DNA from: an uncultured Chloroflexia bacterium
GTDB lineage: Bacteria; Chloroflexota; Limnocylindria; Limnocylindrales; CSP1-4
Reading direction: 5' to 3'
Assembly: GCA_963746405.1 (NCBI GenBank)
Contig: CAVVAV010000003.1
Location: 933,589 to 997,588, forward strand
DNA: 64,000 nt
The notes beneath the pieces were generated by a model that ran no database searches, was not told the DNA's origin, and saw only the letters and a program-made list of their open reading frames with translations. This document shows positions 38,842-54,526 of this stretch, piece after piece (the first letter of the stretch is position 1; each line of letters begins with the position of its first letter). The translations under genes and the position numbers were made by a program.

Positions 38842-40261
38842 CCCGCCCACGCCGCAACGGGGGACTGGCGAGGGGAGCGGCGCCGTCGAGCGGGACGGTG
38901 GGTCGTTCCGGGACCCCAGTGGCTTCGTTTTCTGGCAGGACGGTCAGCCGTATCGTCAGATCCAGCGCCGCTTCGCGGCCGAGTGGGACGCCTTCGAGGC
39001 CAGCCCGCTCAAGAGCCAGCTGATCGCCCAGGGGCGACTCATCCCGTATGAGACCGTGCCGCTCGAGCGGGCGCAGGGCCCGGACGCACATGCCGTCATC
39101 CGCCCCGAGCGGATCGAGTTCATCAGCCACCCCTTCGAGTGGACGTTCGGGGAGCTGCGCGACGCGGCGCTGCTGACACTCGACGCGCAGCTCGACGCGC
39201 TGGCTGCCGGCTGGCAGCTCAAGGACGCCTCGGCGTACAACGTCCAGTTCCGCGACACCCGCCCGATCCTCATCGACTCGTTGTCGTTCGAGCCGCACGA
39301 GGACGGGGCGCCGTGGGTGGCCTACCGCCAGTTCTGCGAGCATTTCCTGGCACCCCTCGCGCTCATCGCCAAGCGTGACGTCCGGCTGGCCGGCCTGCTT
39401 CGTGCCGACCCCGACGGCGTGCCGCTGGATCTGGCCAGCAAGCTGCTGCCGTGGCGGACCAGGCTCGACTTCGGTCTGTTGTCCCATGTGCACCTGCACG
39501 CCCGGGCGCAGCGCCGCTACGCCGGGAACGAGGACGAGGGCAGGGCGGCGCGTGGGGCACGGATCAGCCGATCTCGGCTCGCGGGTCTCATCGGGAATCT
39601 GCGGGGCACGGTCGCGAAGCTCCGCTGGGAGCCCGCCGGGACGGAGTGGTCGGATTACGCGGACCACACGAGCTATGGCGACACGGCCACGGCCGCGAAG
39701 TCGCGGCTGGTCGAGGCGTTCGTGCGGGATGCCCCGGGGTCCCGGGCATGGGACCTGGGCGCGAACACCGGCCGGTACAGCCGGATCGCGGCCGACGCGG
39801 GCAAACGCGTGCTCGCCTTCGACATCGACCCGGCGGCCGCGGAGCGCAACTACCGCCAGATCCGCGGCGAGGGCCGAACGGACATCCTGCCGCTCATCCT
39901 CGACGTGGCCAATCCGAGCCCGGGTATCGGCTGGGCCGCGCGCGAGCGACGTTCGTTGCTGGAGCGGGCGGATCCCGACGTCGTGCTGGCACTGGCCCTG
40001 GTCCACCACCTCGCCATCTCGCGGAACGTGCCCCTCTCGATGGTGCTCGGGCTGTTCGCCGACCTCGCGCCCGCCGCCGTCGTCGAGTTCGTGCCCAAGG
40101 AGGACGCGATGGTCCGGCACCTGCTGGCCTCGCGCCGCGACGTCTTCCCCGATTACACGCTCGAGGGGTTCCGGGCCGCTGCCGGCGAGCGGTTCGACAT
40201 CGCCGCGGAATCGCCGATCGAGGACAGCCTGCGCGTCCTGTTCCTGCTTCGCCGTCGCTGA
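38819..40261 (+). CDS. Class I SAM-dependent methyltransferase with N-terminal extension
   Basis: 480 aa; C-terminal DLGANTGRYS...AFDID MTase fold motif I. Confidence 0.65.
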   Translation: MTAPGVADPPTPQRGTGEGSGAVERDGGSFRDPSGFVFWQDGQPYRQIQRRFAAEWDAFEASPLKSQLIAQGRLIPYETVPLERAQGPDAHAVIRPERIEFISHPFEWTFGELRDAALLTLDAQLDALAAGWQLKDASAYNVQFRDTRPILIDSLSFEPHEDGAPWVAYRQFCEHFLAPLALIAKRDVRLAGLLRADPDGVPLDLASKLLPWRTRLDFGLLSHVHLHARAQRRYAGNEDEGRAARGARISRSRLAGLIGNLRGTVAKLRWEPAGTEWSDYADHTSYGDTATAAKSRLVEAFVRDAPGSRAWDLGANTGRYSRIAADAGKRVLAFDIDPAAAERNYRQIRGEGRTDILPLILDVANPSPGIGWAARERRSLLERADPDVVLALALVHHLAISRNVPLSMVLGLFADLAPAAVVEFVPKEDAMVRHLLASRRDVFPDYTLEGFRAAAGERFDIAAESPIEDSLRVLFLLRRR

Positions 40262-40324
40262 GTCTCGCCGCGCTGCGTGTGGACGGCGTGTGGATAGCAC
40301 CGCCAAATGCAAGCCTGCAGTAAC

Positions 40325-40470
40325 GAAAGTAGTGGATAACTCGATTGTCGCGGCCTGACCGCCCGGGTAAGGTACGTCTTGCCTGAAGGGGCCACGGACA
40401 TCTAGTGATCTGATCTGTGTTTACATGGATCGGGGCAACTAGTGATCGAGGTTCCTTCGGGCGTTCTCGT
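40325..40470 (+). promoter_or_regulatory. Conserved 5' element copy 1 (GTGGATAAC ... TGCcTGAAGGGGC ... GTGTTTACAT-N13-CAACTA ... GTTCCTTCGGGCGTT)
   Basis: Shares blocks and spacing with 41335..41490 upstream of the next-but-one gene. Confidence 0.5.
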
Positions 40471-40541
40471 TTCCGCCCCGGAACCGGGGCCGGTCAGCGG
40501 AACCGGGCCGGTCACCCGATCGCGCGTGGCACCATGGACGC

Positions 40542-41270
40542 ATGCGGCTCCGGGACGGCCTCCACCGCCTCGGCAATGGCACCGTCAACGTGTACCTCAT
40601 TGCCGACGGCAGCGATGTCACGATCATCGATGCGGGCGTGCCCGGCTACTGGGGCGATCTCCCGGCCGAGCTCGCGGCCATGGGCCGCACCCTCGACGAC
40701 GTCCGGGCAGTGGTCCTGACCCACGGCCACTCCGACCACATCGGCTTTGCCGAGCGTGCCCGCCGAGAACGCCGCGTGCCGGTCAGCGTCCATGAGCTGG
40801 ACGCGGCCCTGGCACGGGGCGAGGTGCCCAGCCCGGTCAAGGGCATGGGACCGGTCAGGCTGCGGCCGCTGCTGTCGTTCCTGGTCTTCGGTGCGCTCAA
40901 GGGCGCCCTCCGGACGCGGCGGCTCGACGAGGTCGGGACGTACGCGGACGGCGCGACGCTGGATGTGCCCGGGGCCCCACGCGTGACGCTCGTGCCCGGC
41001 CACACGCCGGGCAGCGCCGCCCTCCATGTCCCGAGCCACGACGCGTTGTTCGTCGGCGACGCGCTCGCGACGCTGGCCGTGACGACCGGGGCGACGGGGC
41101 CGCTGATCGCGCCGTTCACCGCCGACCGATCGACCGCGTTGCGCTCCCTCGACCGGTTGATCGGCATCGAAGCGGGTTGGCTGCTCCCCGGCCACGGCGA
41201 GCCGTGGACCGGCGGCGTGGCCGCGGCGATCGAACGGGTCCGTGCTCGCGGCACGTCCGTCGCGGCGTGA
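40542..41270 (+). CDS. MBL-fold metallo-hydrolase
   Basis: HxHxDH motif LTHGHSDHIG; 242 aa. Confidence 0.8.
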   Translation: MRLRDGLHRLGNGTVNVYLIADGSDVTIIDAGVPGYWGDLPAELAAMGRTLDDVRAVVLTHGHSDHIGFAERARRERRVPVSVHELDAALARGEVPSPVKGMGPVRLRPLLSFLVFGALKGALRTRRLDEVGTYADGATLDVPGAPRVTLVPGHTPGSAALHVPSHDALFVGDALATLAVTTGATGPLIAPFTADRSTALRSLDRLIGIEAGWLLPGHGEPWTGGVAAAIERVRARGTSVAA

Positions 41271-41334
41271 CAGCCACGCCTCCCGCGGATGGGTTTCTGT
41301 GGACGGCCTGTGGACGATCCGGGGGCGTCATCCG

Positions 41335-41490
41335 GGAAAGTCGCAAACTCGTGGATAACCCCCCTTCCCAGGCCGATGGACCAGCGGATACAGTTCGACT
41401 TGCTCGAAGGGGCGCCAGACCGCAAGTGGCGGTACCGGTGTTTACATCGGTAGTGTCAACTACGGACCGGCCGTTCCTTCGGGCGTTTTC
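41335..41490 (+). promoter_or_regulatory. Conserved 5' element copy 2
   Basis: Same ordered blocks as copy 1; ends directly at ATG of 41491 gene. Confidence 0.5.
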
Positions 41491-42465
41491 ATGTCCGCGG
41501 CGACCCACCCGGTGATCACGGTCCCGGAGCTGGAACCGGCGGCCATCCGTTCCGCCCAAGGGCGGATCGACCCGGTCTTCACGAACTCCCCGCAGTACGT
41601 GCACGAGGCCCTCTCGGCGCGGCTGGGCGTCCCGGTGATCGTGAAGGTTGAGACGGTCAATCCCATCCGCTCGTTCAAGGGCCGCGGGACCTGGGTCGCC
41701 ATGGTGGGCCTGGTGGGGGAGGGGACCGTCGGACCCGAACGGGCCGTGGTCTGCGTCTCGGCCGGCAACTTCGGCCAGGGCGTCGCCTACGCCGCGCGCG
41801 CGATGGGGGTTCCGGCCGTGGTGTTCTGCTCGACCAGCGCGAACCGGGGCAAGGTCGCCCGGATGCGGGCGCTCGGCGCCACCGTCATCGAGGCCGGCGA
41901 CGATTTCGACGCCGCGCGTGGCACCTCCGAGGCCTACGCCGCCGAACACGGCGCCGTCCTGCTCGTCGACGGGGACGATGCGCGCATCTCGACCGGCGCC
42001 GCGACCCTCGCGCTCGAGGTGACCGACGGCGTGGCCGCCGGTTTCCTGCCGATGCCGACCCTGGCGGCCGTGCCGGTCGGCAACGGCGCGCTCATCAACG
42101 GCGTCGGGTCGTGGCTGCGCCACGCCGCGCCCGGGTGCCGGGTCGTGGGGATCCAGGCCGAGGCCGCGCCGGCGATGACCCTGTCCTGGCGGGCCGACCG
42201 GCCGATCGACACGGACAGTGCCGCCACGTATGCCGACGGCATCGCCTCGCGCGTGGCGATCCCATCCGCGGTCGAGCTCATGCGCGGCCGGGTCGACGAC
42301 ATGATCACGGTCTCCGAGGAGCAGCTCCGTGCCGCCCAGGGCGAGCTGACCGAGGAACTCGGCGTCACCGTCGAGGGGGCCGCCGCGGCCTCGTGGGCAG
42401 GGCTGCTGGCAGGGGAGCGGCCGACCGGGCCTGCCCTCCTCATCGTCACCGGCAGCAACGCCTGA
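41491..42465 (+). CDS. PLP-dependent threonine/serine dehydratase-like enzyme
   Basis: PLP-lysine motif NPIRSFKGRG; fold type II; no ACT domain. Confidence 0.8.
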   Translation: MSAATHPVITVPELEPAAIRSAQGRIDPVFTNSPQYVHEALSARLGVPVIVKVETVNPIRSFKGRGTWVAMVGLVGEGTVGPERAVVCVSAGNFGQGVAYAARAMGVPAVVFCSTSANRGKVARMRALGATVIEAGDDFDAARGTSEAYAAEHGAVLLVDGDDARISTGAATLALEVTDGVAAGFLPMPTLAAVPVGNGALINGVGSWLRHAAPGCRVVGIQAEAAPAMTLSWRADRPIDTDSAATYADGIASRVAIPSAVELMRGRVDDMITVSEEQLRAAQGELTEELGVTVEGAAAASWAGLLAGERPTGPALLIVTGSNA

Positions 42466-45745: not shown

Positions 45746-46510
45746 GTGACCGCAGTCTCGTTCGCCGTCGAGGGTCGGGTCGCGCTCGTGACCGGCGCGA
45801 CCGGTGGCATCGGCGCCGACCTGGCCATGGCGTTCGCCGAGGCCGGCGCACGGGTGGGCGTCGCCGGGCGGGCGGGGGAGCGCGTCGACGCCGTCGTCCG
45901 CGCCATCCGCGCTACGGGTGGGGAAGCCTCCCCCGTCGAGCTCGATCTGACCGACCGGGCGTCGATCGAACGCGCCGTCGCGCAGGTTGTCGACACATTC
46001 GGCCGGCTCGACATCCTGGTCAACAACGCCGGGCTCGGGACAAACCACGATGCGATCGACGCGACCGAGGCCGAGTGGGACGAGCTCTTCGCGGTCAACG
46101 TGCGTGGGCTGTTCTTCGCCTCGCAGTCGGCCGCCCGAGTGATGCTGCCGCAGGGCTCTGGACGCATCATCAACATGGCGTCACAGGCGGGCCTCGTGGG
46201 CATCCCGCGCCACGCGGCCTATTCGGCAAGCAAGGCGGCGGTGATCGGCCTGACGCGCGTGCTGGCGCTCGAATGGTCGCCGCACGGCGTGACGGTCAAC
46301 GCCGTCGCCCCGACCTGGGTCTACACGCCCGGGACGGCGGAGCGCCTGGACGATCCGGCGTTCCTCGCGTCGGTCCTGGAACGGATCCCGGCTGGCCGGG
46401 TCGCGACAACGGCCGATGTCGCTGCCGCGGTGCTGTATCTGGCCTCGCCGGCGGCAGGGATGGTCACAGGGACCGTCCTGACGGTCGACGGCGGCTGGAC
46501 GGCGCGGTAG
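45746..46510 (+). CDS. SDR family oxidoreductase
   Basis: VTGATGGIG, NNAG, YxxxK (YSASK); alt ATG start 45677. Confidence 0.85.
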   Translation: MTAVSFAVEGRVALVTGATGGIGADLAMAFAEAGARVGVAGRAGERVDAVVRAIRATGGEASPVELDLTDRASIERAVAQVVDTFGRLDILVNNAGLGTNHDAIDATEAEWDELFAVNVRGLFFASQSAARVMLPQGSGRIINMASQAGLVGIPRHAAYSASKAAVIGLTRVLALEWSPHGVTVNAVAPTWVYTPGTAERLDDPAFLASVLERIPAGRVATTADVAAAVLYLASPAAGMVTGTVLTVDGGWTAR

Positions 46511-46539
46511 AGCGGCCATCCAGGCCCTGCGAAGGCTCT

Positions 46540-47289
46540 CTAACCACTTCCGATAAGGTGAGTTATGTCTGACTGGGGACGGAGATGGTCCGCGGCGGAT
46601 TCATGAACTCGAGACGACCCTATTCTGTGCTTTGGGGTCTCGCCCAGCCGATCGATTAGGGCGTTGAGGCCGCCGGTAAGCCCGAGAGACGCAATCCCTA
46701 AGATGGCCAACAGGACCGCGACGAGCGTCCATCGCCGCGCGGTAAATAGGTCTTGCGCCACACGGGATCCGCTCAGGTACGCGGATTGGGTAGCGCGGCG
46801 TAGTGCCTCAGCTGCGGCGGCTTGGAGCGACGCCTCGGTTGGCTCCTCGTTACGAAGCGACCGCGCGAGGATTCCGAGGCGATCGAGACTTATGCCGCCC
46901 GATTCGGTCAATCCGCTCGCGAGCGACGCTATTGCAATCGCAATCGCCAGACTAACGTCTGCAAGCAGCAAGATGACGAGTGGCGTCCAATCCCAAAGGC
47001 TCGCATATGGCGCAGGGATCACGACTGCCGTAGCACCAAGCGCGAACGGAACCAACGCAAGGAGAAGCGTGAGATGGGTTGAGACCTTGGACTGGAGGCT
47101 ATCAACAGCCCCATCGGCTAGCTCCAGGCTCTTAATCGCGAGCTCTAGGGCTACCTCGCTTCGCCGCTCATCCCCTGCCGCGTCGCGAATCCACTCTGGT
47201 GGCGGTGTTGCCGGAAGTCGCTCAAGCCCTTCAGCGGTTCGTGCATCGCCTGCGATGAATGCGACAAATCGGCGGAGCGTCCCGGCCAC
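46540..47289 (-). CDS. Membrane protein (3 predicted TM), hypothetical, low-GC island
   Basis: GTG start abuts ATP-grasp stop (TAAGTG); hydrophobic segments. Confidence 0.55.
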   Translation of the reverse strand: MAGTLRRFVAFIAGDARTAEGLERLPATPPPEWIRDAAGDERRSEVALELAIKSLELADGAVDSLQSKVSTHLTLLLALVPFALGATAVVIPAPYASLWDWTPLVILLLADVSLAIAIAIASLASGLTESGGISLDRLGILARSLRNEEPTEASLQAAAAEALRRATQSAYLSGSRVAQDLFTARRWTLVAVLLAILGIASLGLTGGLNALIDRLGETPKHRIGSSRVHESAADHLRPQSDITHLIGSG

Positions 47290-48219
47290 TTAACGAGTCC
47301 TCGTTAGCGCTCTAGCGAGTGCTTCCGTGATCCGTCCGTTATATGTATCGTCGAGAAAGAGCCACTGTCCGTTTGGATTCGCTTCGAGAAATACGCTCTC
47401 GCCGCTGCGGCTCACAATCCAGTCTTGGGATGAATACCCGAGCCCGAGGGCGCTCGCCACACGCAGCGCATCGTCGGCAACTCTTGGATGGGCACCATCG
47501 GCCACGACAAAGCGTTGATGATTCTCGGTCTTGAGCCGCCAATCGAGATCCTCGGTGGTTAACGCGGCTACGAAAGCCGCGCGTTCGACTGTTACCACGC
47601 GTAGGTGTGTGGATGCCTCCATGAGCTCTTGCAGGATTACTGGTACTCCGCCGAGGTCACGAAGCTGCTCAGGCCCGACCTCCGTTGTGAACGCGACCCT
47701 GGGAGGATCGTTCGAGACCAGCCCGTAGCGAATTGGCTTAACCACAACGCGACCATGATCGCGAACAAATCGCCGTGCGCGCCGTGCGTCTGACGTAACA
47801 ATTGTCTTGGGAATTCGAAGCCCGAGTGAGTTGGCAACCGCGAGCTGGTAGCCCTTTACCTCTGACCGCTGCAAGACGTGCGGAGGGGTGAGCCAGTCCA
47901 CAGTCGTGTGGGCCGCGAACATCAGCGTTTCGCGCCACTCTTGAATGACAAACTCGGAATACAGACTGTCAACGTCGTCGACTACCACGCGACCGGGCCG
48001 CCTCCAGAACCCGCGCGTTGTAGCGTCTATGAGATGTCGGTTCCCAACGATCCAGTGGGGTGGATCAGGCGTCCAATAGAAAGACGCGGAAGCCAACGTA
48101 TCCCTGGACAACCGAATCGTTCGAGCGCCTAGGCGAAAGAGGGCCTGCTCAAGCGCGTCGCCATGTTCATCCGAGGGGGCCGATACTAGGAGGACTTCAG
48201 CCCCAGCTGGGCTCGTCAT
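47290..48219 (-). CDS. ATP-grasp enzyme, RiPP-maturase-like (graspetide/microviridin-type)
   Basis: 309 aa; LDWR and FLEANPNGQWLFLD motifs recalled from MdnC/ATP-grasp ribosomal peptide maturase families; low GC. Confidence 0.65.
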   Translation of the reverse strand: MTSPAGAEVLLVSAPSDEHGDALEQALFRLGARTIRLSRDTLASASFYWTPDPPHWIVGNRHLIDATTRGFWRRPGRVVVDDVDSLYSEFVIQEWRETLMFAAHTTVDWLTPPHVLQRSEVKGYQLAVANSLGLRIPKTIVTSDARRARRFVRDHGRVVVKPIRYGLVSNDPPRVAFTTEVGPEQLRDLGGVPVILQELMEASTHLRVVTVERAAFVAALTTEDLDWRLKTENHQRFVVADGAHPRVADDALRVASALGLGYSSQDWIVSRSGESVFLEANPNGQWLFLDDTYNGRITEALARALTRTR

Positions 48220-48436
48220 CAGTCGTCTCAGGAGGCTGGCTCCTGGTCAATCTCGTACCGCCAGGGACCTCGCCAGGAACTGATCTAGCAACCCTAGCCA
48301 GCAATGGGAGTCCTCCTCCCACGACTAGGTCAATCGCTGTCAGCCCGGGGTCATCCGATGTCTCGGCTGTCTTGGTGAAGACGGTTTGGCCTTCCGCGTG
48401 GCCTTGGACCTCAACTGAGATCTTTTCGAGGATCAT
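48197..48436 (-). CDS. Candidate precursor peptide/small ORF upstream of ATP-grasp
   Basis: Only ORF in the 345-nt gap; G-rich SD upstream; MILEKISVEVQGHAEGQTVFTKTAETSDDPGL rich in T/S/K and D/E; 3' part rare-codon, may be non-coding. Confidence 0.25.
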   Translation of the reverse strand: MILEKISVEVQGHAEGQTVFTKTAETSDDPGLTAIDLVVGGGLPLLARVARSVPGEVPGGTRLTRSQPPETTDDEPSWG

Positions 48437-48565
48437 GTGTCGCACTCCCGTGCTCCCTCCCCCGTCGCCGGCAGCGTCGGGCCGTCAATCCAGAGTCTAT
48501 CGACCGAACAGTCGGTTTGTACACACTCGCCACTCTGCTCGTGACTGATCCAATACGAATTGCAG

Positions 48566-50888
48566 CTAGGCGAGGTAGGAGCGGACTCTTCCGGGTGCGT
48601 ATAGAAAGCGATCAATCGACGCCGATACGTTGTAGTAGTACGGCGGATGCTCGATGTAGTTCGCCAGAAGCGCCTCGAGGAACGCGGGATCAGCGCGCTG
48701 GGTGATGACAGCCACGGCCGCGACCCGGATTTGTGCACTCTCGCTGTGGAGGAGCGCCTCGAACTCTGAGATAGGCACGTTGCCGTCGGCGCCTAGCGCC
48801 TGAACCGCCGCGTGGACAAGCTCTGCGTCGGCGCTCCCCAGGAGCGAACGCGCAAACTCCGTGCCCCCAAGCCGAAGACTCGCTGCGGTCAATGCTTCAC
48901 GCTCTTCGTCCATCGTGAGCCTCGCGGACTCTGCGAGCAACGGCGCATCACGACGCTCTCCAACCAATGCTAGGGCGGTTGCCACGTCAGCCTTCGCGGA
49001 CCGATTGATGTGCTCCAGGGCCTGTCGGATGAGGTCAATGTCGTCGGCGCCTCGCACGTCGGGGGAAAGCCGAGCGAGCAATTGCGCGGCGGCATTAGTT
49101 CGGCGCCCGTAGAGATAGCCGAACACGCTCTTCTCACCAGCCAGCGCCGGTAGCTCCGCAGCCGCCGAAGAGGCCCACTCATCCTCTGTCTGGGACAGGA
49201 GTTGGCGCGCTTCGTCCGCCATCGACTCGCCGTCCAGCCACGTCAAGGCCTCCCATGCCTCGTGATCAAGCGCCGACCCAGCGGACCGACGCAACTCATC
49301 AAGGGGGATGCTCATTGCCATTAGGCGCGGCCTGAGCGCGGTCGCCCATGGGCTTCGTTCATCGACGAGCCGATCCAAAAGCTGTTGTGCCAAGACTCTC
49401 CGAGCGTCGACGTAGTCCAGGACAAGGTTGGTCAGGTCGGAACTCGCGTCGTCCACCGCGTTGGCAAGCTGATCAACACTACAATTCCCCCGGTTCAGCA
49501 ACTCAACCAGCGCTGCCCGTCGCAACGGAGTCTTTATGCGCCGCTTGATCAGGTTCGCGAGATCGACGTCGTCCAGCAGGGCGACGTCCCGCTGGAGGAG
49601 TTCGCGAGCCCATGGCCTAATGTCGTATCTGTCGCCGATCGCAACGGCCACAAGTGGACTGTGGTCGCCTTGAAAGGCTGCTCTAAGCGCTTGGACATCC
49701 GCGGTGCCGACGTCGTCGGGTGCCCCCTCGACGATTGCACGCAATAGCCCCTCGTCATGCCGCTCGGCCAGACCTGCCAAGTACTTGGTTGCGTTCATCG
49801 AGCGCAATGGATCGGCAAGCAGCTTCACCCATCGCTCGGCCTTTTCGGCCAGTTCTGATTGCGTCGTTTCGTCGTTCGCCCAAAGGTCGCGCGGTCGCAC
49901 GGACATGATGTTGAGCAGACGCAGCGCGCCCCGCGCCGCGGTCAAGTCGTCGCCTTGGGCCATCGCCGCGAGCCGCCTCTCCAAATCGGCTTCTCCGACA
50001 ATTGCCCAACCCGGCACGACCAATTCTGCGACGTCCTCGGACGCGAAATCTGTCGCGAGTGTCTTGAGCCACTGCTCGGCTTCGCCCACGATCAACGAGA
50101 TCTCTGCATGACGACGGTACAGACGGTTCACCACGTGGGTGGGCAAGGCGTCCCCGTTGCCAATTGCGATCGAGAATAGAAGTAGGCGGTCAGGATCAAG
50201 CGAGGTGGAGGGTCGGTCACCGGCGACGACGCGTCGGAATCCATCGAGAACGTCTGTGATCTGTTCCTGTGCTGATCTGCGCTCGCTGTCGGGGTCCTCC
50301 TCTTGCGAACTGGTCGGACGCCCTGCGGCGGAATCGCCGGAGTCGGCAGGGGCGGCCGTAGGTCCGGGAGCGGTCCGGCCTTCCGTCACGGCGCGATCTG
50401 TGACCACGCCCACGAGGTACGCGACGAGCTGTCTATCTAGATCAGGAAGCGAATCGAACTCGCGATACAACGCAAGCTGCTCGTCGCGGATTCGTCCCCG
50501 AAACTCAAGCACACGCTGCAGCCTGCGGACCGGCGTCAGCCTCCTCGCCTTCGAGAAGGCGTTTGAAGAAGAGTCCAATAGCCGGGGTGTGCGCCGTGGC
50601 TCGCCTTCCGACGACTCGTTCGAACTCTTCGGCGAAACCGGAATCGTTAGCCCCGGTATTGGACCCCCACCGTCGGTGAAGTAGCCCGACAAAGATGTCG
50701 CAAGAATCCACCAACGGGTTGATCAGGTCCTGTGGACGACCGAGGTCCGGGGCAACTCGCTCCCAACCGGTTACGCGAATTCGAACGCCCAGACTGACGC
50801 CGCACATTTCCACGACGCGGTCCGCCACAACGCGCACCAAAGCGCGTTCCTCGGGAAGATCACCTGGTGAAGCGATGAATAGTTCCAA
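48566..50888 (-). pseudogene. DUF4062 N-domain + HEAT/ARM-like repeat protein, frameshift near 50533
   Basis: N-term MELFIASPGDLPEER (DUF4062-like, ORF 50505..50888) continues in other frame into 708-aa ORF with C-terminal HEAT-like repeats. Confidence 0.55.
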
Positions 50889-50934
50889 CTCAATTGCCTC
50901 GGTGACCAGCGTTCATCCTCCTACACCCACGGCC

Positions 50935-51225
50935 CTAATCGAGGTTGGCTAGTCCGTTTCCCGATGGCGTTGTCTTATCTTCGGGCCTCGTCGTGGTCGC
51001 TAGCTCTGGCCACAATCGTCTTTGGAATCCGCTTTCGGCTGGCAGCGCGAGATGGCCATCTTGTCGTCCCTCCTTCGCGCTCGTCCTGAAGTCGCACTTG
51101 GGAAGCCCGGGCCCAGCCGGCCCCACCGTACCTGGGGTTCCAGGCGGGTCGGAGCAGGGCCAGCAGAAACCGGCGACGAGTCGAGCGGACACGCCGGTCG
51201 CCGCCTGGGCCGCGAAACCGATCAC
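50935..51225 (-). pseudogene. Relic fragment of DUF2075-like gene
   Basis: AAQAATGVSARLVAGFCWPCSDP...KCDFRTSAKEG vs AQAATGATARLVAGFCWPWSDP...KSDFWASAKEG in 52553..54478; ~70-nt DNA identity; high-GC patch. Confidence 0.6.
51147..51214. repeat. ~70-bp dispersed repeat copy A (matches 53042..53110)
   Basis: CAGGGCCAGCAGAA(A/G)CCGGCGACGAGTCGAGCGG...GCCGCCTGGGC shared. Confidence 0.7.
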
Positions 51226-52494
51226 TTCCGCTTCACGGCGTCAGCGACGATATCAAGCAGCCGTTTCACCAGATCATTTCCGTCGTCAGCTGTACTTCCA
51301 GCTACTGGCGCTGTGAGAAACGACCGTTTAGCGAGGTCATACTTGAGCTCGTTACGCTTCTCGTCGTCGAGCAACGCGACGAAGGGATCAAGCGCGGTGA
51401 GGTCGAGTTCCGACTTTCGAGCGCGCCACTCGGTCTGCCGGTGGCGGCCTGACTCTGCGAGTGCATAGAGACCGATGCCGAGAAGAGGCAGCGCGACAAG
51501 CAGCCTGCCTGTTAGCCATTGCAGTGTGAACTCTGTGGCGCCGGTAGTGACGATTGTGAAGACTCCCCAGGCGGCAATAGCGACGAAGAGACCGATGCCG
51601 ACCCATCGCCACCGGTCGGCGGCCTTGTGCTCGGATTCGGCTTGGCCCAGATAACCCCCGCTCGCTGCCTCCGCACCCAGGGCACTTAAGACCTTCCGCG
51701 CGTCGTCGCGGGACGCCGTCATGTCTTCGAGCAGGGTTTCAGCGCCTGCGCGGAGCTCCTCCGCGGAAGTGCTTGCAAGTTCACGCTGCTCGGTCATGAA
51801 CGTGGCGTGTTCCTCGGCCGCGCGCGCAGTCTGCTGTCGCGAACTGCTCAGCCCGCTGCGACTCCGCTGTGGAGAACTGTGACTGGAACTGGGCAATCGC
51901 CGCGTCAAGCCGGCTCTTCTGGTTCGAGATCTCAGCCGTCAACTCCGTCTGCCTTGCCGCCAGGGGCGCGAGAGCGGACTGGGCCTCTGCCGTGGCCTGA
52001 TCTACGAGCTGTTCGATCTCGGAGCGCACTCGTGCAAGGGCTTGCTCAAGTTCCGCCGCTCGGTCTCGGTTTCGTCCTGCTTCACCGCGGAGGTCCTCCA
52101 GAACCTCCTCCACGTCCCGCCGAAGCGCCGCGATCGTCTGCCGTGCTTCGCGAGCCGGGCGCTGTAGCCAAGTCGTGAGGGCGTCGAGGACTTGCTCGAG
52201 GTAAGCGTTCGCACTGGTGAGCTGGGCGGCGTCGCCGGACGAGACGTACGCGCTTGTCGCGTTCTGAACCTGGCTGAGTGCAGGCGAAGGTGCGTCGATG
52301 ATTCGCGCCGACAGAAGTTGGGGATCCGCGCTGAGAATGATCGCGCGGGCGACTTCGATACCTGCCCTGAGTCGCTGCTGGTCGTCCCGTTCTTTGTCGG
52401 ATTTGGGGTCCGGCAGTTTGCTCAGAAGTTCGACGAGGGCACGCGTTAGTGCGACCGTCTGACTGCCAGCATGCCGGTCACGCCACTCACTCAT
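51222..52494 (-). pseudogene. Coiled-coil protein with two C-terminal TM helices, frameshift at (GC)n ~51817-51826
   Basis: ORFs 51781..52494 and 51222..51908 join into Q/A/E-rich coiled coil then WRWVGIGLFVAIAAWGVFTIV and LLVALPLLGIGLYALA TM. Confidence 0.5.
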
Positions 52495-52552
52495 CGCAGC
52501 GCCTTACAGAGCGGGAGGGTCCGCAGATAGCGCGGGGTATAGGCGGCACGAG

Positions 52553-54478
52553 CTACTCCTCGTACGTCGCGGCAGCTTGCGCTGCCATATGAGTGTCCGT
52601 GGTTGCGAGTTCCGTTCGGCTCAGGAAGAAGTCGCGCGTCGGGGCGTCCATGAAGTAGACGTAGCAGCCGCGGAGACCGCGGGTCAGCAGGACGCGGTAG
52701 GTGCTCTTGACGTAGCGGGTGAACTCGGCCTCGGTGACGCCGCGGCGGACGACGCGGTCGTGCGACTGGTCGCGCTGGCCGACCCATCCCCCGTCCATCG
52801 GCCGGTAGACGAGGTCGGGGCCGACGATCACGCCGACGTAGTCGAACTCGAAGCCCTGCGCCGTGTAGACGCAGCCCACCTGGTCGATCCCCTCCTTCGC
52901 GCTCGCCCAGAAGTCCGACTTCGGGATGCCGGGGCCGAGCCGGCCGACGCCGTCCCTGGCGTTCCAGGGCATCGACCACTCCCCTACCCTGACGTCCGGC
53001 ACGAGCTGGCCGTCGTCGTCGGGGTCGGACCAGGGCCAGCAGAAGCCGGCGACGAGTCGAGCGGTCGCGCCGGTTGCCGCCTGGGCGCGGATCTTCTGCT
53101 CGAGCTGGCCGATCGAGCCGACGATCTGGAAGTCGAACTCGTCGTCCATCGACCAGAGCACCTGCGGCGTCCGGTTGAGCTCGAGCGTGTTGTCGACCCA
53201 CTGGATGAACGAGTCGGAGCCGTTCGAGCGGAACTGCGCCTCGAGCTTGAAGTCGCGCACCTCGATCGAGCGCTTGGCGGCCTCCTCGCGGATCAGGTCG
53301 GTGCTGCCGACCTCGCCCGGGCGCACGACCTGCAGGTCATCGATGAAGAAGACGGTGACCCGGCTCGAGTCCAGGATGTCGTCGATCTGGGACTTGCCCG
53401 TGCGCGCCTTCGCGGGCGTGAAGCGGCTCGTGCTGATCGTCCGGATGCGGTGGGCCTCGTCGAGGATGGCGACGTCGAGCTTGTCGGTGACGGTCGCGGT
53501 GTCGCGGAAGTACTTGAACAGCGCGCCGGCTCGACCGCCGACGATCTTGCGCAGGTTCTCCGTGAACGCCTTGGAGCCGGTCAGGTGGAGCGTGCTGAGG
53601 CCGCGCTCGGCGAGCTCCGCGACGAGGTTGAGGGCGATGACCGACTTGCCGGTGCCCGGGCCGCCTTCGATGAGGAAGATGACGTTCTGCTCGTTTGTGC
53701 CCGCGTGGCCGACGGCGTCGAGGATGGCGTTGTAGGCCACGAGTTGTTCGTCGAGGAGCACGAAGGTCGGCTCGATGCGGATGACGCGGGCGACGTGGTC
53801 GAGCAGGCGCTTGTGTGGCTTGAACGCAGTCGCGGCGACGCGCTCCAGGATCTCGCCCTCGTCCGGGCCGGCGATGTGCTGATCGAGGAACGTCGCGAGC
53901 GCATCGGACTGGTCGCCGGCAAACGCGGGGTTGGAACCAAGGAGCGCCGTGAAATCCGCGTGGTAGAGCGGAGACATCGGGTCGTGCTGCGCGTAGTGAA
54001 GGTACGCGCAGGCATCGAGGGCGATCGCGCGGTCGTCCGAAAACGCGGGATGGGTATCCAGCAGGTACCGCTGGTACTGCGCGACCTGGCGCGACGGGTG
54101 GAGCGTGTCGCGCGGCTTGCCGCCGTAGTCGACGGTGACGCAGTCGGTGATGTTCGACCGGCCGACTTCGGTCCACTGCTTGAGCTCGACGATCACGGCC
54201 GCGTCGCGGCGCGTGTCGGGGTTCGAGCCGGTGATGAGGACGTCAAGCCGCTTCGAGCTGAGCGGCATCTTGAGTTCGACGAGGATGCCCTGATCGGTCA
54301 GGTCGGCCGTCTGGAGCACGTGGGCCATCGCGCTGAGGCTGTTGCGCCAGCTCGTGACTTCGCTCGGAGATGGTCGGTAGCGGAACTCGTCGAACCAGCG
54401 GTCGCTCAGCATGTTGGCGAGCCGAGCCTGGGTTGCGTCCGCGATGAACTGCCGGGTCGAGCCCTGGTAGAGGTGCAA
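52553..54478 (-). CDS. DUF2075-like protein: N-terminal PD-(D/E)xK-like (NERD-type) segment + SF1-like P-loop ATPase
   Basis: ILVELK / VIVELKQW segments; Walker A IEGGPGTGKSV; Walker B LDVAILDEAHRI; TTG start with G-rich SD. Confidence 0.65.
   Translation of the reverse strand: MHLYQGSTRQFIADATQARLANMLSDRWFDEFRYRPSPSEVTSWRNSLSAMAHVLQTADLTDQGILVELKMPLSSKRLDVLITGSNPDTRRDAAVIVELKQWTEVGRSNITDCVTVDYGGKPRDTLHPSRQVAQYQRYLLDTHPAFSDDRAIALDACAYLHYAQHDPMSPLYHADFTALLGSNPAFAGDQSDALATFLDQHIAGPDEGEILERVAATAFKPHKRLLDHVARVIRIEPTFVLLDEQLVAYNAILDAVGHAGTNEQNVIFLIEGGPGTGKSVIALNLVAELAERGLSTLHLTGSKAFTENLRKIVGGRAGALFKYFRDTATVTDKLDVAILDEAHRIRTISTSRFTPAKARTGKSQIDDILDSSRVTVFFIDDLQVVRPGEVGSTDLIREEAAKRSIEVRDFKLEAQFRSNGSDSFIQWVDNTLELNRTPQVLWSMDDEFDFQIVGSIGQLEQKIRAQAATGATARLVAGFCWPWSDPDDDGQLVPDVRVGEWSMPWNARDGVGRLGPGIPKSDFWASAKEGIDQVGCVYTAQGFEFDYVGVIVGPDLVYRPMDGGWVGQRDQSHDRVVRRGVTEAEFTRYVKSTYRVLLTRGLRGCYVYFMDAPTRDFFLSRTELATTDTHMAAQAAATYEE
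53042..53110. repeat. ~70-bp dispersed repeat copy B
   Basis: See 51147..51214. Confidence 0.7.
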
Positions 54479-54526
54479 CCCCTCCCCTTCCCCGATGGGC
54501 CGCCGTGACGGTCGACGACGTGGTGA

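What the first reader, a model, noticed from the sequence alone, without database searches (positions are those of the whole stretch)
40325..41490. ~150-bp conserved upstream element duplicated before two adjacent unrelated genes (MBL hydrolase and PLP dehydratase-like)
Both 5' regions share ordered blocks: GAAAGT..(A/C)GTGGATAAC (a near DnaA-box-like 9-mer), CTTGC(C/T)(T/C)GAAGGGGC, GTGTTTACAT-N13-CAACTA, and (C)GTTCCTTCGGGCGTT(C/T)TC containing a C(UUCG)G-type hairpin. In copy 2 the block ends exactly at the ATG; in copy 1 it ends 70 nt upstream. The conserved spacing suggests a shared promoter/operator or a structured leader RNA controlling both genes.
Basis: seen in the sequence. Interest (0 to 1): 0.55.

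Follow-up and report, generated by a model that had tools for sequence, protein, structure and literature searches.

The report
Two sibling small-RNA genes, new family
The repeated ~200-bp block is most likely a pair of related small structured-RNA genes, each with its own regulated promoter and built-in terminator, rather than a shared control region for the two enzymes, and it belongs to a large RNA family of uncultured soil Chloroflexota that is absent from Rfam.

Summary
The duplication is real: two collinear ~200-bp copies at 40278-40474 and 41298-41496, far above background.

Each copy has four parts:
- Three phased GTGGA 9-mers that resemble DnaA boxes.
- A weak -35 and a TANNNT -10.
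- An 84-85-nt hairpin starting about 7 nt after the -10.
- A U-rich tail.

Across 107 copies from 72 Limnocylindria (Chloroflexota) genome loci plus the window:
- The hairpin is 97.6% paired, and 13 pairs show compensatory changes.
- There are 729 G-U cells against 11 A-C cells, so the + strand is the RNA.

The two window copies are paralogue types A and B. In relatives they usually sit 230-300 nt apart with no gene between them. The MBL gene is a lineage-specific insertion.

Some type-A copies lack the boxes. They use a canonical TTGAC/TAYGGT promoter and face convergent genes. These are therefore free-standing sRNA genes, not leaders.

The same promoter, 13-bp closing stem and tail also enclose 115-175-nt branched interiors in at least 120 metagenome contigs, at several distinct loci. 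Rfam has no match for any form.

Function is unknown. My best guess is trans-acting structured RNAs under a DnaA-box-binding regulator.

The parts
40278..40286 (+). Copy 1 box 1, TGTGGACGG (7/9 to TGTGGACAA)
   Evidence: Sequence. The family position is conserved as yGTGGa, 11 nt before box 2.
40289..40297 (+). Copy 1 box 2, TGTGGATAG (8/9 to TGTGGATAA, the complement of the DnaA box TTATCCACA)
   Evidence: The family consensus is cTGTGGAcaac, 41-43 nt before box 3.
40325..40340 (+). Copy 1 box 3 with its conserved 5' flank, GAAAGT-AGTGGATAA-C (9-mer at 40331-40339)
Evidence: The family consensus is GAAAsTCGTGGATAAs, and its G lies 36-38 nt before the -10.
40345..40350 (+). Copy 1 putative -35, TTGTCG
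   Evidence: It lies 17 nt upstream of the -10. The type-A consensus is cTTGyCGc. Inferred.
40368..40373 (+). Copy 1 putative -10, TAAGGT
   Evidence: A TANNNT ends 6-7 nt before the GCY of the hairpin in 100 of 104 family copies.
40380..40463 (+). sRNA type A: an 84-nt hairpin with a 13-bp closing stem, an invariant middle helix (CUAGUGA on both arms), a covarying upper stem and a UUUA cap
   Evidence: (-47.4 kcal/mol; z = -3.1). The covariance model R1 scores it at 106 bits.
40464..40474 (+). U-rich tail (TTCTCGTTTCC), the terminator tract of sRNA A
   Evidence: There are 5-7 T in the 9 nt after the stem in 102 of 106 copies.
41298..41306 (+). Copy 2 box 1, TGTGGACGG
   Evidence: (repeat D7).
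41309..41317 (+). Copy 2 box 2, TGTGGACGA (8/9 to TGTGGACAA)
41344..41359 (+). Copy 2 box 3 with flank, CAAACT-CGTGGATAA-C (9-mer at 41350-41358)
41365..41370 (+). Copy 2 putative weak -35, TTCCCA
   Evidence: It lies 18 nt before the -10. The type-B consensus is cTTCCCag. Inferred.
41389..41394 (+). Copy 2 putative -10, TACAGT
41401..41485 (+). sRNA type B: an 85-nt hairpin with the same closing stem and cap as type A, and a middle part made of a CCG/CGG helix plus an MAAG/ACUA internal loop
   Evidence: (-49.5 kcal/mol; z = -3.2). The covariance model R1 scores it at 104.5 bits.
41486..41496 (+). U-rich tail TTTTCATGTCC. The ATG at 41491 is the likely PLP-gene start in this sublineage
   Evidence: The tail is conserved regardless of the downstream gene. 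L042 keeps the ATG but has GCG in place of the in-frame GTG.
40542..41270 (+). MBL-fold hydrolase gene inserted between sRNA A and sRNA B. It is not part of the element. A leaderless-type -10 (CACCAT, 40530-40535) lies 6 nt before its ATG
   Evidence: Pfam PF00753. The insertion is present only in the window, L048 and L030. Promoter motif.

Best explanation
The two blocks are two independent, paralogous small-RNA genes (types A and B). They belong to a large RNA family of Ca. Limnocylindria (Chloroflexota) that has no match in Rfam 15.

Inferred from sequence:
- Each gene has an upstream module of three GTGGA 9-mers on one face of the DNA helix. Boxes 1 and 2 are 11 bp apart, and box 3 lies 42 bp further on, just upstream of a weak -35.
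- A TANNNT -10 follows.
- The transcript starts at the base of a long hairpin. That hairpin's 13-bp G+C-rich closing stem plus U tract also acts as its own intrinsic terminator.

Shown by comparison:
- The hairpin is conserved at the RNA level on the + strand.
- The promoter architecture is conserved.
- The RNA is independent of any particular downstream gene.

Inferred about mechanism:
- A site-specific DNA-binding protein controls transcription through the boxes. DnaA is the best sequence match (my estimate about 0.3-0.4).
- The RNAs act in trans as folded molecules that bind a protein or another RNA, rather than through a single-stranded seed.
- The closing stem and the middle helix are invariant on both strands, and every loop is just a stable cap.
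- The closing stem is a constant handle. The interior is a variable payload: one arm in types A and B, two to six arms in the longer relatives.
For: Structure and strand:
- RNAalifold on a MAFFT alignment of 87 copies gives 28 pairs, 11 of them with compensatory changes.
- On 107 copies, 97.6% of cells are paired and 13 pairs show double changes in 363 cells. No shuffle in 500 reaches this, and slid registers give 38-49%.
- There are 729 G-U cells against 11 A-C cells. The mean folding energy is -48.5 kcal/mol on the + strand and -33.9 on the - strand, with + more stable in 106 of 106.
- The covariance model scores about 105 bits on the + strand and 24-37 bits on the - strand.

Promoter and terminator:
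- A TANNNT ends 6-7 nt before the hairpin in 100 of 104 copies.
- Eleven or more type-A copies have no boxes but carry CTCTTGAC-N17/18-TAYGGT at the same distance. The promoter scanner finds TTGACG-18-TATGGT ending 1 nt before the RNA in L016.
- There are 5-7 T in the 9 nt after the stem in 102 of 106 copies.

Boxes:
- YGTGGAYAA occurs 129 times in 588 kb. Of these, 121 sit at two fixed promoter positions.
- Spacings are 11, 41-43 and 36-38 nt.

Not a leader:
- The order is A then B in 31 of 34 two-copy loci, mostly 229-297 nt apart.
- Downstream genes vary and are often convergent.
- Several downstream genes have their own leaderless-type promoter.

Family:
- At least 120 metagenome contigs carry the same closing stem and tail around a 115-175-nt interior.
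- Of 113 such contigs with enough upstream DNA, 107 have the same -10 at the same distance and 107 have box 3.
- The two large classes covary: 18 and 14 pairs with double changes.
- Loops are GNRA or CUUG caps.

No Rfam match.
Against: - There is no expression data. The transcription start, the 3' end and the very existence of the RNA rest on sequence inference.
- No binding partner or target was identified.
- The 13-bp closing stem shows only one-sided (wobble) variation, so covariation does not prove it.
- In the window and seven related loci the PLP gene's likely start codon sits 5 nt after the type-B stem. Type B could therefore also serve as a leader there.
- The box consensus has conserved flanks (AAGTTCG...), and in the long forms one box reads GGGGATAA. 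Both are atypical for DnaA boxes.
- No dnaA or oriC region from these genomes was available for comparison.
Confidence: 0.7

Rival explanations
1. Cis-acting leader or attenuator. The hairpin plus U tract would be a regulated terminator in the 5' UTR of the gene that follows (MBL after copy 1, PLP enzyme after copy 2).
For: - Both copies lie upstream of same-strand genes.
- The hairpin is followed by a U tract.
- In eight loci the PLP gene's ATG or GTG lies 5 nt after the type-B stem, and no separate promoter is recognisable there.
- Type B is followed by the PLP gene in many loci.
Against: - A and B are adjacent with no gene between them in most loci.
- The MBL gene is a lineage-specific insertion, and L010 has an unrelated gene at that spot.
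- Downstream genes belong to many unrelated families. They are convergent in at least 7 of 11 box-less type-A loci and in many long-form loci.
- The acyltransferase gene and the MBL gene have their own TACCAT/CACCAT-N6-8-start promoters.
- The RNA starts at the first base pair of the hairpin, so there is no upstream RNA to form an antiterminator.
Confidence: 0.12
2. Classical base-pairing sibling sRNAs. Types A and B would regulate mRNAs by antisense pairing through a conserved seed, like OmrA/B, PrrF1/2 or the Neisseria NmsRs.
For: - The genes are tandem homologues, each with its own promoter and terminator and a shared upstream site.
- Invariant 12-13-nt stretches differ between A and B, which could encode target specificity.
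- Sibling sRNAs are an established class (PMC5362039, found).
Against: - Almost every nucleotide is paired, and the loops are interchangeable caps: UUUA, CUUG and GNRA.
- No conserved single-stranded stretch exists.
- Long relatives are compact multi-arm junctions rich in GNRA loops, which is typical of RNAs that work through their fold.
- No complementary site was found in the 64-kb window. This is a weak test.
Confidence: 0.15
3. The primary function is at the DNA level. The locus would be a cluster of DnaA boxes (a datA/DARS-like titration or reactivation site, or a replication origin), and the hairpins would be ordinary terminators.
For: - There are three phased 9-mers per unit, and six within about 500 bp where A and B are adjacent. 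They match TTATCCACA or TTGTCCACA at 7-9 of 9 positions.
- The 11-bp spacing of boxes 1 and 2 matches DnaA arrays. This rests on my own knowledge.
Against: - The hairpin is equally conserved in lineages with no boxes at all.
- RNA-level covariation and the G-U bias show selection on the transcript.
- There is no AT-rich unwinding element.
- Flanking genes run in the same direction on both sides, and GC skew does not turn.
- No dnaA or dnaN gene is nearby.
Confidence: 0.06
4. A dispersed repeat or mobile element: a MITE, a REP/BIME element, or integron attC-like cassette boundaries.
For: - The element is an imperfect inverted repeat of about 85 nt that recurs between unrelated same-strand genes.
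Against: - There are only two copies in 64 kb, and one to a few syntenic loci per genome.
- The order is fixed as A then B.
- There is no match in plasmids, phages or viral contigs.
- No integrase or transposase gene is nearby.
- Compensatory substitutions indicate selection for structure, not recent copying.
Confidence: 0.02

Closest known systems
Rsm/Csr-type sRNA families (RsmX/Y/Z, CsrB/C)
   Same: - Paralogous sRNAs of different lengths built from repeated hairpin modules.
- Each has its own promoter preceded by a conserved upstream binding site for one regulator.
- Each ends in an intrinsic terminator.
- They are sometimes tandem.
- They work by binding a protein rather than through a seed.
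   Different: - There are no GGA motifs in the loops; the loops are UUUA, CUUG or GNRA caps.
- The whole RNA is enclosed by one invariant 13-bp closing stem that is also the terminator.
- The upstream site is DnaA-box-like, not a GacA box.
- No CsrA-type partner is known.
- This is a resemblance in architecture only.
Sibling (tandem paralogous) base-pairing sRNAs, e.g. Neisseria NmsRs (PMC5362039), OmrA/OmrB, PrrF1/PrrF2
   Same: - Two homologous sRNA genes sit head to tail.
- Each has its own promoter and terminator.
- They share a regulator site.
- The core is conserved, with paralogue-specific segments.
   Different: - Known siblings expose a single-stranded seed.
- Here about 95% of the RNA is paired and no seed is visible.
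Structured ncRNAs of unknown function with multi-stem junctions and GNRA loops (raiA motif RNA, OLE, ROOL/GOLLD)
   Same: - The long relatives (~180 nt) are mostly four-way junctions (three hairpins in 101 of 118) with GNRA or CUUG caps and strong covariation.
- They are free-standing genes found in varied contexts.
   Different: - No Rfam model matches.
- They are smaller than those RNAs.
- They form a multi-paralogue family with a constant closing stem and promoter.
- The window members are single-arm minimal versions.
DnaA boxes, DnaA-regulated promoters and DnaA-box clusters (datA, DARS, B. subtilis clusters)
   Same: - The 9-mers match TTATCCACA or TTGTCCACA (PMC4285127 Table 1).
- There are several boxes in helical phase, including an 11-bp array.
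- One box lies just upstream of the -35.
   Different: - Flanking bases are conserved (GAAAsT / AAGTTCG).
- Box 3 consistently ends in ...CACG.
- One box in the long forms reads GGGGATAA.
- The regulated product is an RNA gene.
- DnaA binding was not tested.
Intrinsic (Rho-independent) terminators
   Same: - A G+C-rich stem is followed directly by a U-rich tract.
   Different: - The stem-loop is 84-85 nt long, or up to ~190 nt in relatives.
- It begins at the predicted +1.
- Its sequence is conserved across a bacterial class.

Membership tests
Any Rfam 15 family | Covariance-model score at or above the family's gathering threshold | tested here: not met
   - The whole window at gathering threshold gives 0 hits.
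- Window 40200-41600 at E<=10 gives only chance hits, the best being mir-2944 at 26.9 bits against a threshold of 56.
- Eight other loci give nothing on the elements.
- The 35 long-form loci give nothing.
Cis-regulatory leader / riboswitch / attenuator | Consistent position in the 5' UTR of same-strand genes of one functional class | tested here: not met
   - Downstream genes vary: acyltransferase, PLP enzyme, CAAX protease, MBL, EamA, MFS and others.
- They are convergent in many loci.
- A is usually followed by B, not by a gene.
Cis-regulatory leader / riboswitch / attenuator | An alternative (antiterminator) structure competing with the terminator | tested here: not met
   The predicted transcript starts at the first pair of the hairpin, so no upstream RNA is available.
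Sibling / tandem sRNA genes | Two or more homologous RNA genes, each with its own promoter and terminator | tested here: met
   - Promoter and terminator signals are found in silico for both copies.
- The tandem A-B order holds in 31 of 34 loci.
- Expression was not tested.
Sibling / tandem sRNA genes | A conserved single-stranded seed complementary to target mRNAs | tested here: not met
   There is no conserved unpaired stretch, and the loops are variable caps.
Csr/Rsm sponge RNAs | Multiple A(N)GGA motifs exposed in hairpin loops | tested here: not met
   Loops are UUUA, CUUG and GNRA. Some relatives carry a repeated GAUCACAUCAA loop instead.
Intrinsic terminator | A G+C-rich stem immediately followed by a U tract | tested here: met
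   - The closing stem has 13 bp.
- There are 5-7 T in the next 9 nt in 102 of 106 copies.
- The scanner flags copy 2.
DnaA-box cluster / DnaA-regulated promoter | 9-mers matching TTWTNCACA / TTGTCCACA, several per site | tested here: met
   - Window boxes match at 7/9, 8/9 and 8/9 in each copy.
- The family consensus is TGTGGACAA for box 2 and CGTGGATAA for box 3.
- Reference consensus from PMC4285127.
DnaA-box cluster / DnaA-regulated promoter | Bound by DnaA, with the same box type at oriC or the dnaA promoter of the same genome | not testable with these tools
   No dnaA or oriC region is present in the window or in any fetched locus.
Chromosomal origin (oriC) | A box cluster plus an AT-rich unwinding element, a GC-skew switch, and usually dnaA/dnaN nearby | tested here: not met
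   - GC content stays at or above 57%.
- GC skew does not turn at 40 kb.
- Genes on both sides run in the same direction.
- No dnaA gene is present.
MITE / REP / integron attC | Many dispersed copies, or an integrase-linked cassette array | tested here: not met
   - Two copies in 64 kb.
- Syntenic single loci in other genomes.
- No plasmid, phage or viral hits.
   Minimum-energy and consensus folds pair this segment with the GAAGGGGC block about 70 nt upstream. That helix is 99.5% paired, with C-G to U-G changes.

The most novel reading that the evidence does not exclude
The family is a regulon of modular RNAs switched by the replication initiator DnaA, or by a dedicated regulator that reads DnaA-like boxes.

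- A constant 13-bp closing stem plus tail would serve as terminator and as a common handle for one partner.
- The interior arms, one in A and B and up to six elsewhere, would be exchangeable payloads.
- Some interiors are GNRA-capped junctions. Others repeat a GAUCACAUCAA loop that resembles the 3' end of 16S rRNA.
- Type B carries an internal loop that resembles a GNRA-tetraloop receptor.
- The arms would bind or sequester cellular factors, or dock onto each other.
- This would couple replication status to RNA or ribosome metabolism in an abundant, uncultured soil lineage.
Probability: 0.15. Interest if true: 0.8.

Novelty: new member of a known kind. Interest (0 to 1): 0.58.

Why it matters
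Ca. Limnocylindria are abundant soil and freshwater Chloroflexota with almost no cultured representatives and no described riboregulation.

What this locus shows:
- A well-supported RNA family with strong covariation.
- At least 107 short copies and at least 120 long copies.
- Five or more architectures, spread over at least four conserved loci.
- No match in Rfam.

Its design is unusual. One promoter module and one closing stem/terminator enclose interchangeable arms. The upstream sites look like DnaA boxes.

If DnaA does drive these genes, that would be, to my knowledge, an undescribed link between the replication initiator and a set of structured RNAs.

For annotation, the practical point is that the MBL and PLP genes are not co-regulated by a shared operator. 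The intergenic blocks should be annotated as ncRNA genes.

Tried and rejected
- **Rfam.** Searched at gathering and lax thresholds on the window and on 43 related loci. Nothing matched.
- **Mobile-element origin.** No similarity in plasmids or phages, and no viral contig carries the closing-stem pattern.
- **oriC.** No skew turn, no AT-rich element and no dnaA gene.
- **Local UUCG hairpin.** Replaced by a long-range helix.
- **Minus-strand RNA.** z = -0.75 and -1.4; 72.7% paired; 24-37 bits.
- **Targets in the window.** I searched for complements of the type-specific motifs and found only chance-level matches.
- **Other boxes in the window.** The one further GTGGACAA, at 48812, lies in coding sequence with no partner boxes.
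- **Conserved neighbour c5.** This 188-aa protein after hflX, absent from the window, has no Pfam or PDB relative, so it gives no clue.
- **Literature.** Searches for the sequence blocks, for Limnocylindria sRNAs and for DnaA-controlled sRNAs found nothing relevant.
- **PLP start codon.** I first thought the PLP gene starts at GTG 41512, following the M-I-x-V-P-E-L pattern of other loci. L042 has GCG there and keeps the ATG, so ATG 41491 is more likely in this sublineage.
Full report
**1. The observation**

- The pattern GTGTTTACAT-N13-CAACTA occurs twice in 64 kb, against none expected.
- Local alignment of the two units scores 59. Shuffles give 16.7 +/- 2.3, and the best other tile of the window scores 25.
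- The similarity begins about 45 nt further upstream than reported, at TGTGGACGGCNTGTGGA (40278 and 41298). Each unit is therefore about 200 bp.

**2. The core is an RNA hairpin on the + strand**

- Both copies fold into one long hairpin, with energies of -80 and -88 kcal/mol for the ~195-nt units and z = -3.1 and -3.2. The reverse strands give z = -0.75 and -1.4.
- GTGTTTACAT is the apical stem-loop.
- The supposed local C(UUCG)G hairpin therefore does not exist as such.

**3. Relatives**

One exact-pattern scan of 185,579 species genomes returned 81 stretches.

- 72 of them have the right spacing and carry the other blocks. Nearly all are from MAGs labelled Chloroflexota, Chloroflexia or Ca. 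Limnocylindria(les).
- The window is thus from this lineage. L048 is its closest relative: same arrangement, MBL protein 96% identical.

A covariance model built from 87 copies found 107 copies in 73 sources, and only the two known ones in the window.

On that alignment:
- 97.6% of cells are paired.
- 13 pairs show changes on both sides, in 363 cells.
- No shuffle in 500 reaches this, and slid registers give 38-49%.

An independent MAFFT/RNAalifold analysis gave 28 pairs, 11 of them compensatory.

Strand evidence:
- There are 729 G-U cells against 11 A-C cells.
- The + strand is more stable in 106 of 106 copies.
- The model scores about 105 bits on the + strand against 24-37 bits on the reverse strand.

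**4. Gene anatomy**

- A TANNNT hexamer ends 6-7 nt before the hairpin in 100 of 104 copies.
- The stem is followed by 5-7 T in 9 nt in 102 of 106 copies.
- The predicted transcript is therefore essentially the hairpin itself, about 95 nt, and it terminates itself.

Upstream, 84 copies carry three boxes:
- Box 1 is yGTGGa.
- Box 2 is cTGTGGAcaac, 11 nt downstream of box 1.
- Box 3 is GAAAsTCGTGGATAAs, 41-43 nt downstream of box 2 and 36-38 nt before the -10. That places it just upstream of a weak -35.

All three boxes lie on one face of the helix. The 9-mer YGTGGAYAA occurs 129 times in 588 kb, 121 of them at these two fixed positions.

The boxes match the DnaA-box consensus TTATCCACA / TTGTCCACA (PMC4285127 Table 1).

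A subset of type-A copies has no boxes. These carry CTCTTGAC-N17/18-TAYGGT at the same distance. This independently fixes the transcription start, and it shows that the hairpin is the functional core while the boxes are a regulatory add-on.

**5. Two paralogue types**

- Copy 1 is type A. Its middle helix is invariant and carries CUAGUGA on both arms in 49 of 53 copies.
- Copy 2 is type B. It has a CCG/CGG helix, an MAAG/ACUA internal loop, and RGAYCG on both arms.
- In both types the upper stem covaries freely.
- The cap is interchangeable: UUUA, CUUG, GUGA or GCAA.
- In 31 of 34 two-copy loci the order is A then B, mostly 229-297 nt apart.

**6. Context**

The usual neighbourhood is miaA ... 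hflX - an unknown 188-aa gene - [A][B] - AT3/SGNH acyltransferase - PLP enzyme - CAAX protease - ABC transporter.

- The window's lineage has a methyltransferase-like gene upstream instead. It also has an MBL gene inserted between A and B, as do L048 and L030. L010 has an EamA-like gene at that spot.
- Box-less type-A copies sit elsewhere, often convergent with a Zn-peptidase gene.
- The acyltransferase and MBL genes have their own leaderless-type promoter, (GGG)TACCAT or CACCAT, followed by 6-8 nt and the start codon.
- Together these points rule out a dedicated leader function.
- One exception remains possible. In the window and seven related loci the PLP start codon lies 5 nt after the type-B stem, inside the conserved tail. 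Read-through or processing could feed that gene.

**7. A much larger family**

A cluster of boxes in L035 led to a third gene on the opposite strand. It has the same promoter, closing stem and tail, but a 156-nt branched interior.

- Of 113 contigs with enough upstream sequence, 107 have the -10 at the same distance and 107 have box 3 (AAGTTCGTGGAYAAG). Here the upstream boxes are one inverted and one direct.
- They fall into at least five architectures. The two large classes have 18 and 14 pairs with compensatory changes.
- Most are four-way junctions: 101 of 118 have three hairpins.
- The loops are almost all GNRA or CUUG (example fold).
- Some carry one to four GAUCACAUCAA loops.
- They occupy several distinct conserved loci. 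One is next to thymidine kinase, one follows a DnaB/RecA-like ATPase gene (named by eye, not scanned), and one lies between Rieske and MFS genes.
- At the hflX locus itself, two- or three-arm versions replace the A-B tandem.
- None of these forms matches Rfam.

**8. Interpretation**

Shown:
- The RNA structure is conserved and strand-specific.
- The promoter and terminator geometry is conserved.
- The RNA is independent of its downstream genes.
- It belongs to a multi-locus family.

Inferred:
- The RNAs are transcribed as predicted.
- A box-binding protein, perhaps DnaA, controls them.
- They act in trans through their fold.

I favour fold-based binding of a protein or RNA over seed pairing. 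No conserved nucleotide is single-stranded, both strands of the closing and middle helices are invariant, and the long relatives look like compact tertiary folds. The nearest functional analogy is the Rsm/Csr type of modular sRNA family with a shared upstream regulator site, but its defining GGA loops are absent here.

**9. Verdict**

It is wrong on the target, because these are RNA genes and not controls of the two enzymes. Within the limits of Rfam 15 and the literature searched, the family has not been described.

Noticed in passing
window 40474-40515: Between the sRNA A tail and the MBL promoter there is a 19-nt tandem direct repeat (CGGAACCGGG appears twice, repeat D18). It includes the palindrome CCCCGGAACCGGGG. 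L048 has it too. It may be a scar of the MBL insertion or a second hairpin.
   Followed up: no
window 40530-40544; loci L011, L023, L034, L038, L045, L055, L079 and others: A leaderless-type promoter motif recurs: (GGG)TACCAT or GTGGCACCAT, followed 6-8 nt later by the GTG or ATG of a long ORF. It precedes the AT3/SGNH acyltransferase, the window's MBL gene and some PLP genes. This suggests leaderless mRNAs are common in this lineage.
   Followed up: partly
window 41491 vs 41512: The PLP gene has two candidate starts. The ATG lies inside the conserved sRNA tail, and an in-frame GTG gives the M-I-x-V-P-E-L N-terminus seen in other loci. L042 has GCG in place of the GTG, which favours the ATG. 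No Shine-Dalgarno sequence precedes either start.
   Followed up: partly
window 46500-54500, minus strand: A low-GC stretch (62% against 70%) encodes several proteins with no Pfam match. It also encodes a 641-aa Schlafen-group-3 helicase (PF09848) that weakly matches candidate defence models PDC-S41, Nhi and AbiO. It may be an acquired defence island.
   Followed up: partly
L011, L023, L045, L079 and others (not in the window): A conserved 188-aa gene lies between hflX and the sRNA pair. It has no Pfam or PDB relative. The miaA...hflX synteny here has no hfq between them.
   Followed up: partly
L167, L186, L192, L111, L120; one copy each in class-1 loci such as L091 and L131: Long family members carry one to four hairpins with the loop GAUCACAUCAA. 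The first six bases equal the start of the 16S rRNA 3' tail GAUCACCUCCUUA (from my own knowledge). Type A carries the complementary GUGAUC on both arms.
   Followed up: no
window 41420-41470 (type B) and all type-B copies: The conserved internal loop CCG-MAAG / ACUA-CGG resembles the 11-nt GNRA-tetraloop receptor CCUAAG/UAUGG (from my own knowledge). The long relatives are rich in GNRA loops.
   Followed up: no
L034, L040: Two contigs that carry typical family members are labelled Patescibacteria and Deferrimicrobiaceae. They are probably mis-binned Limnocylindria contigs.
   Followed up: no
L141, L153, L157, L185, L110, L127: At the same hflX-c5 position where most genomes have the A-B tandem, some metagenome contigs have a single gene. 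In it, one closing stem encloses two B-like arms or three GGUGCUUGCAC arms. This suggests that separate genes and fused multi-arm RNAs interconvert.
   Followed up: partly
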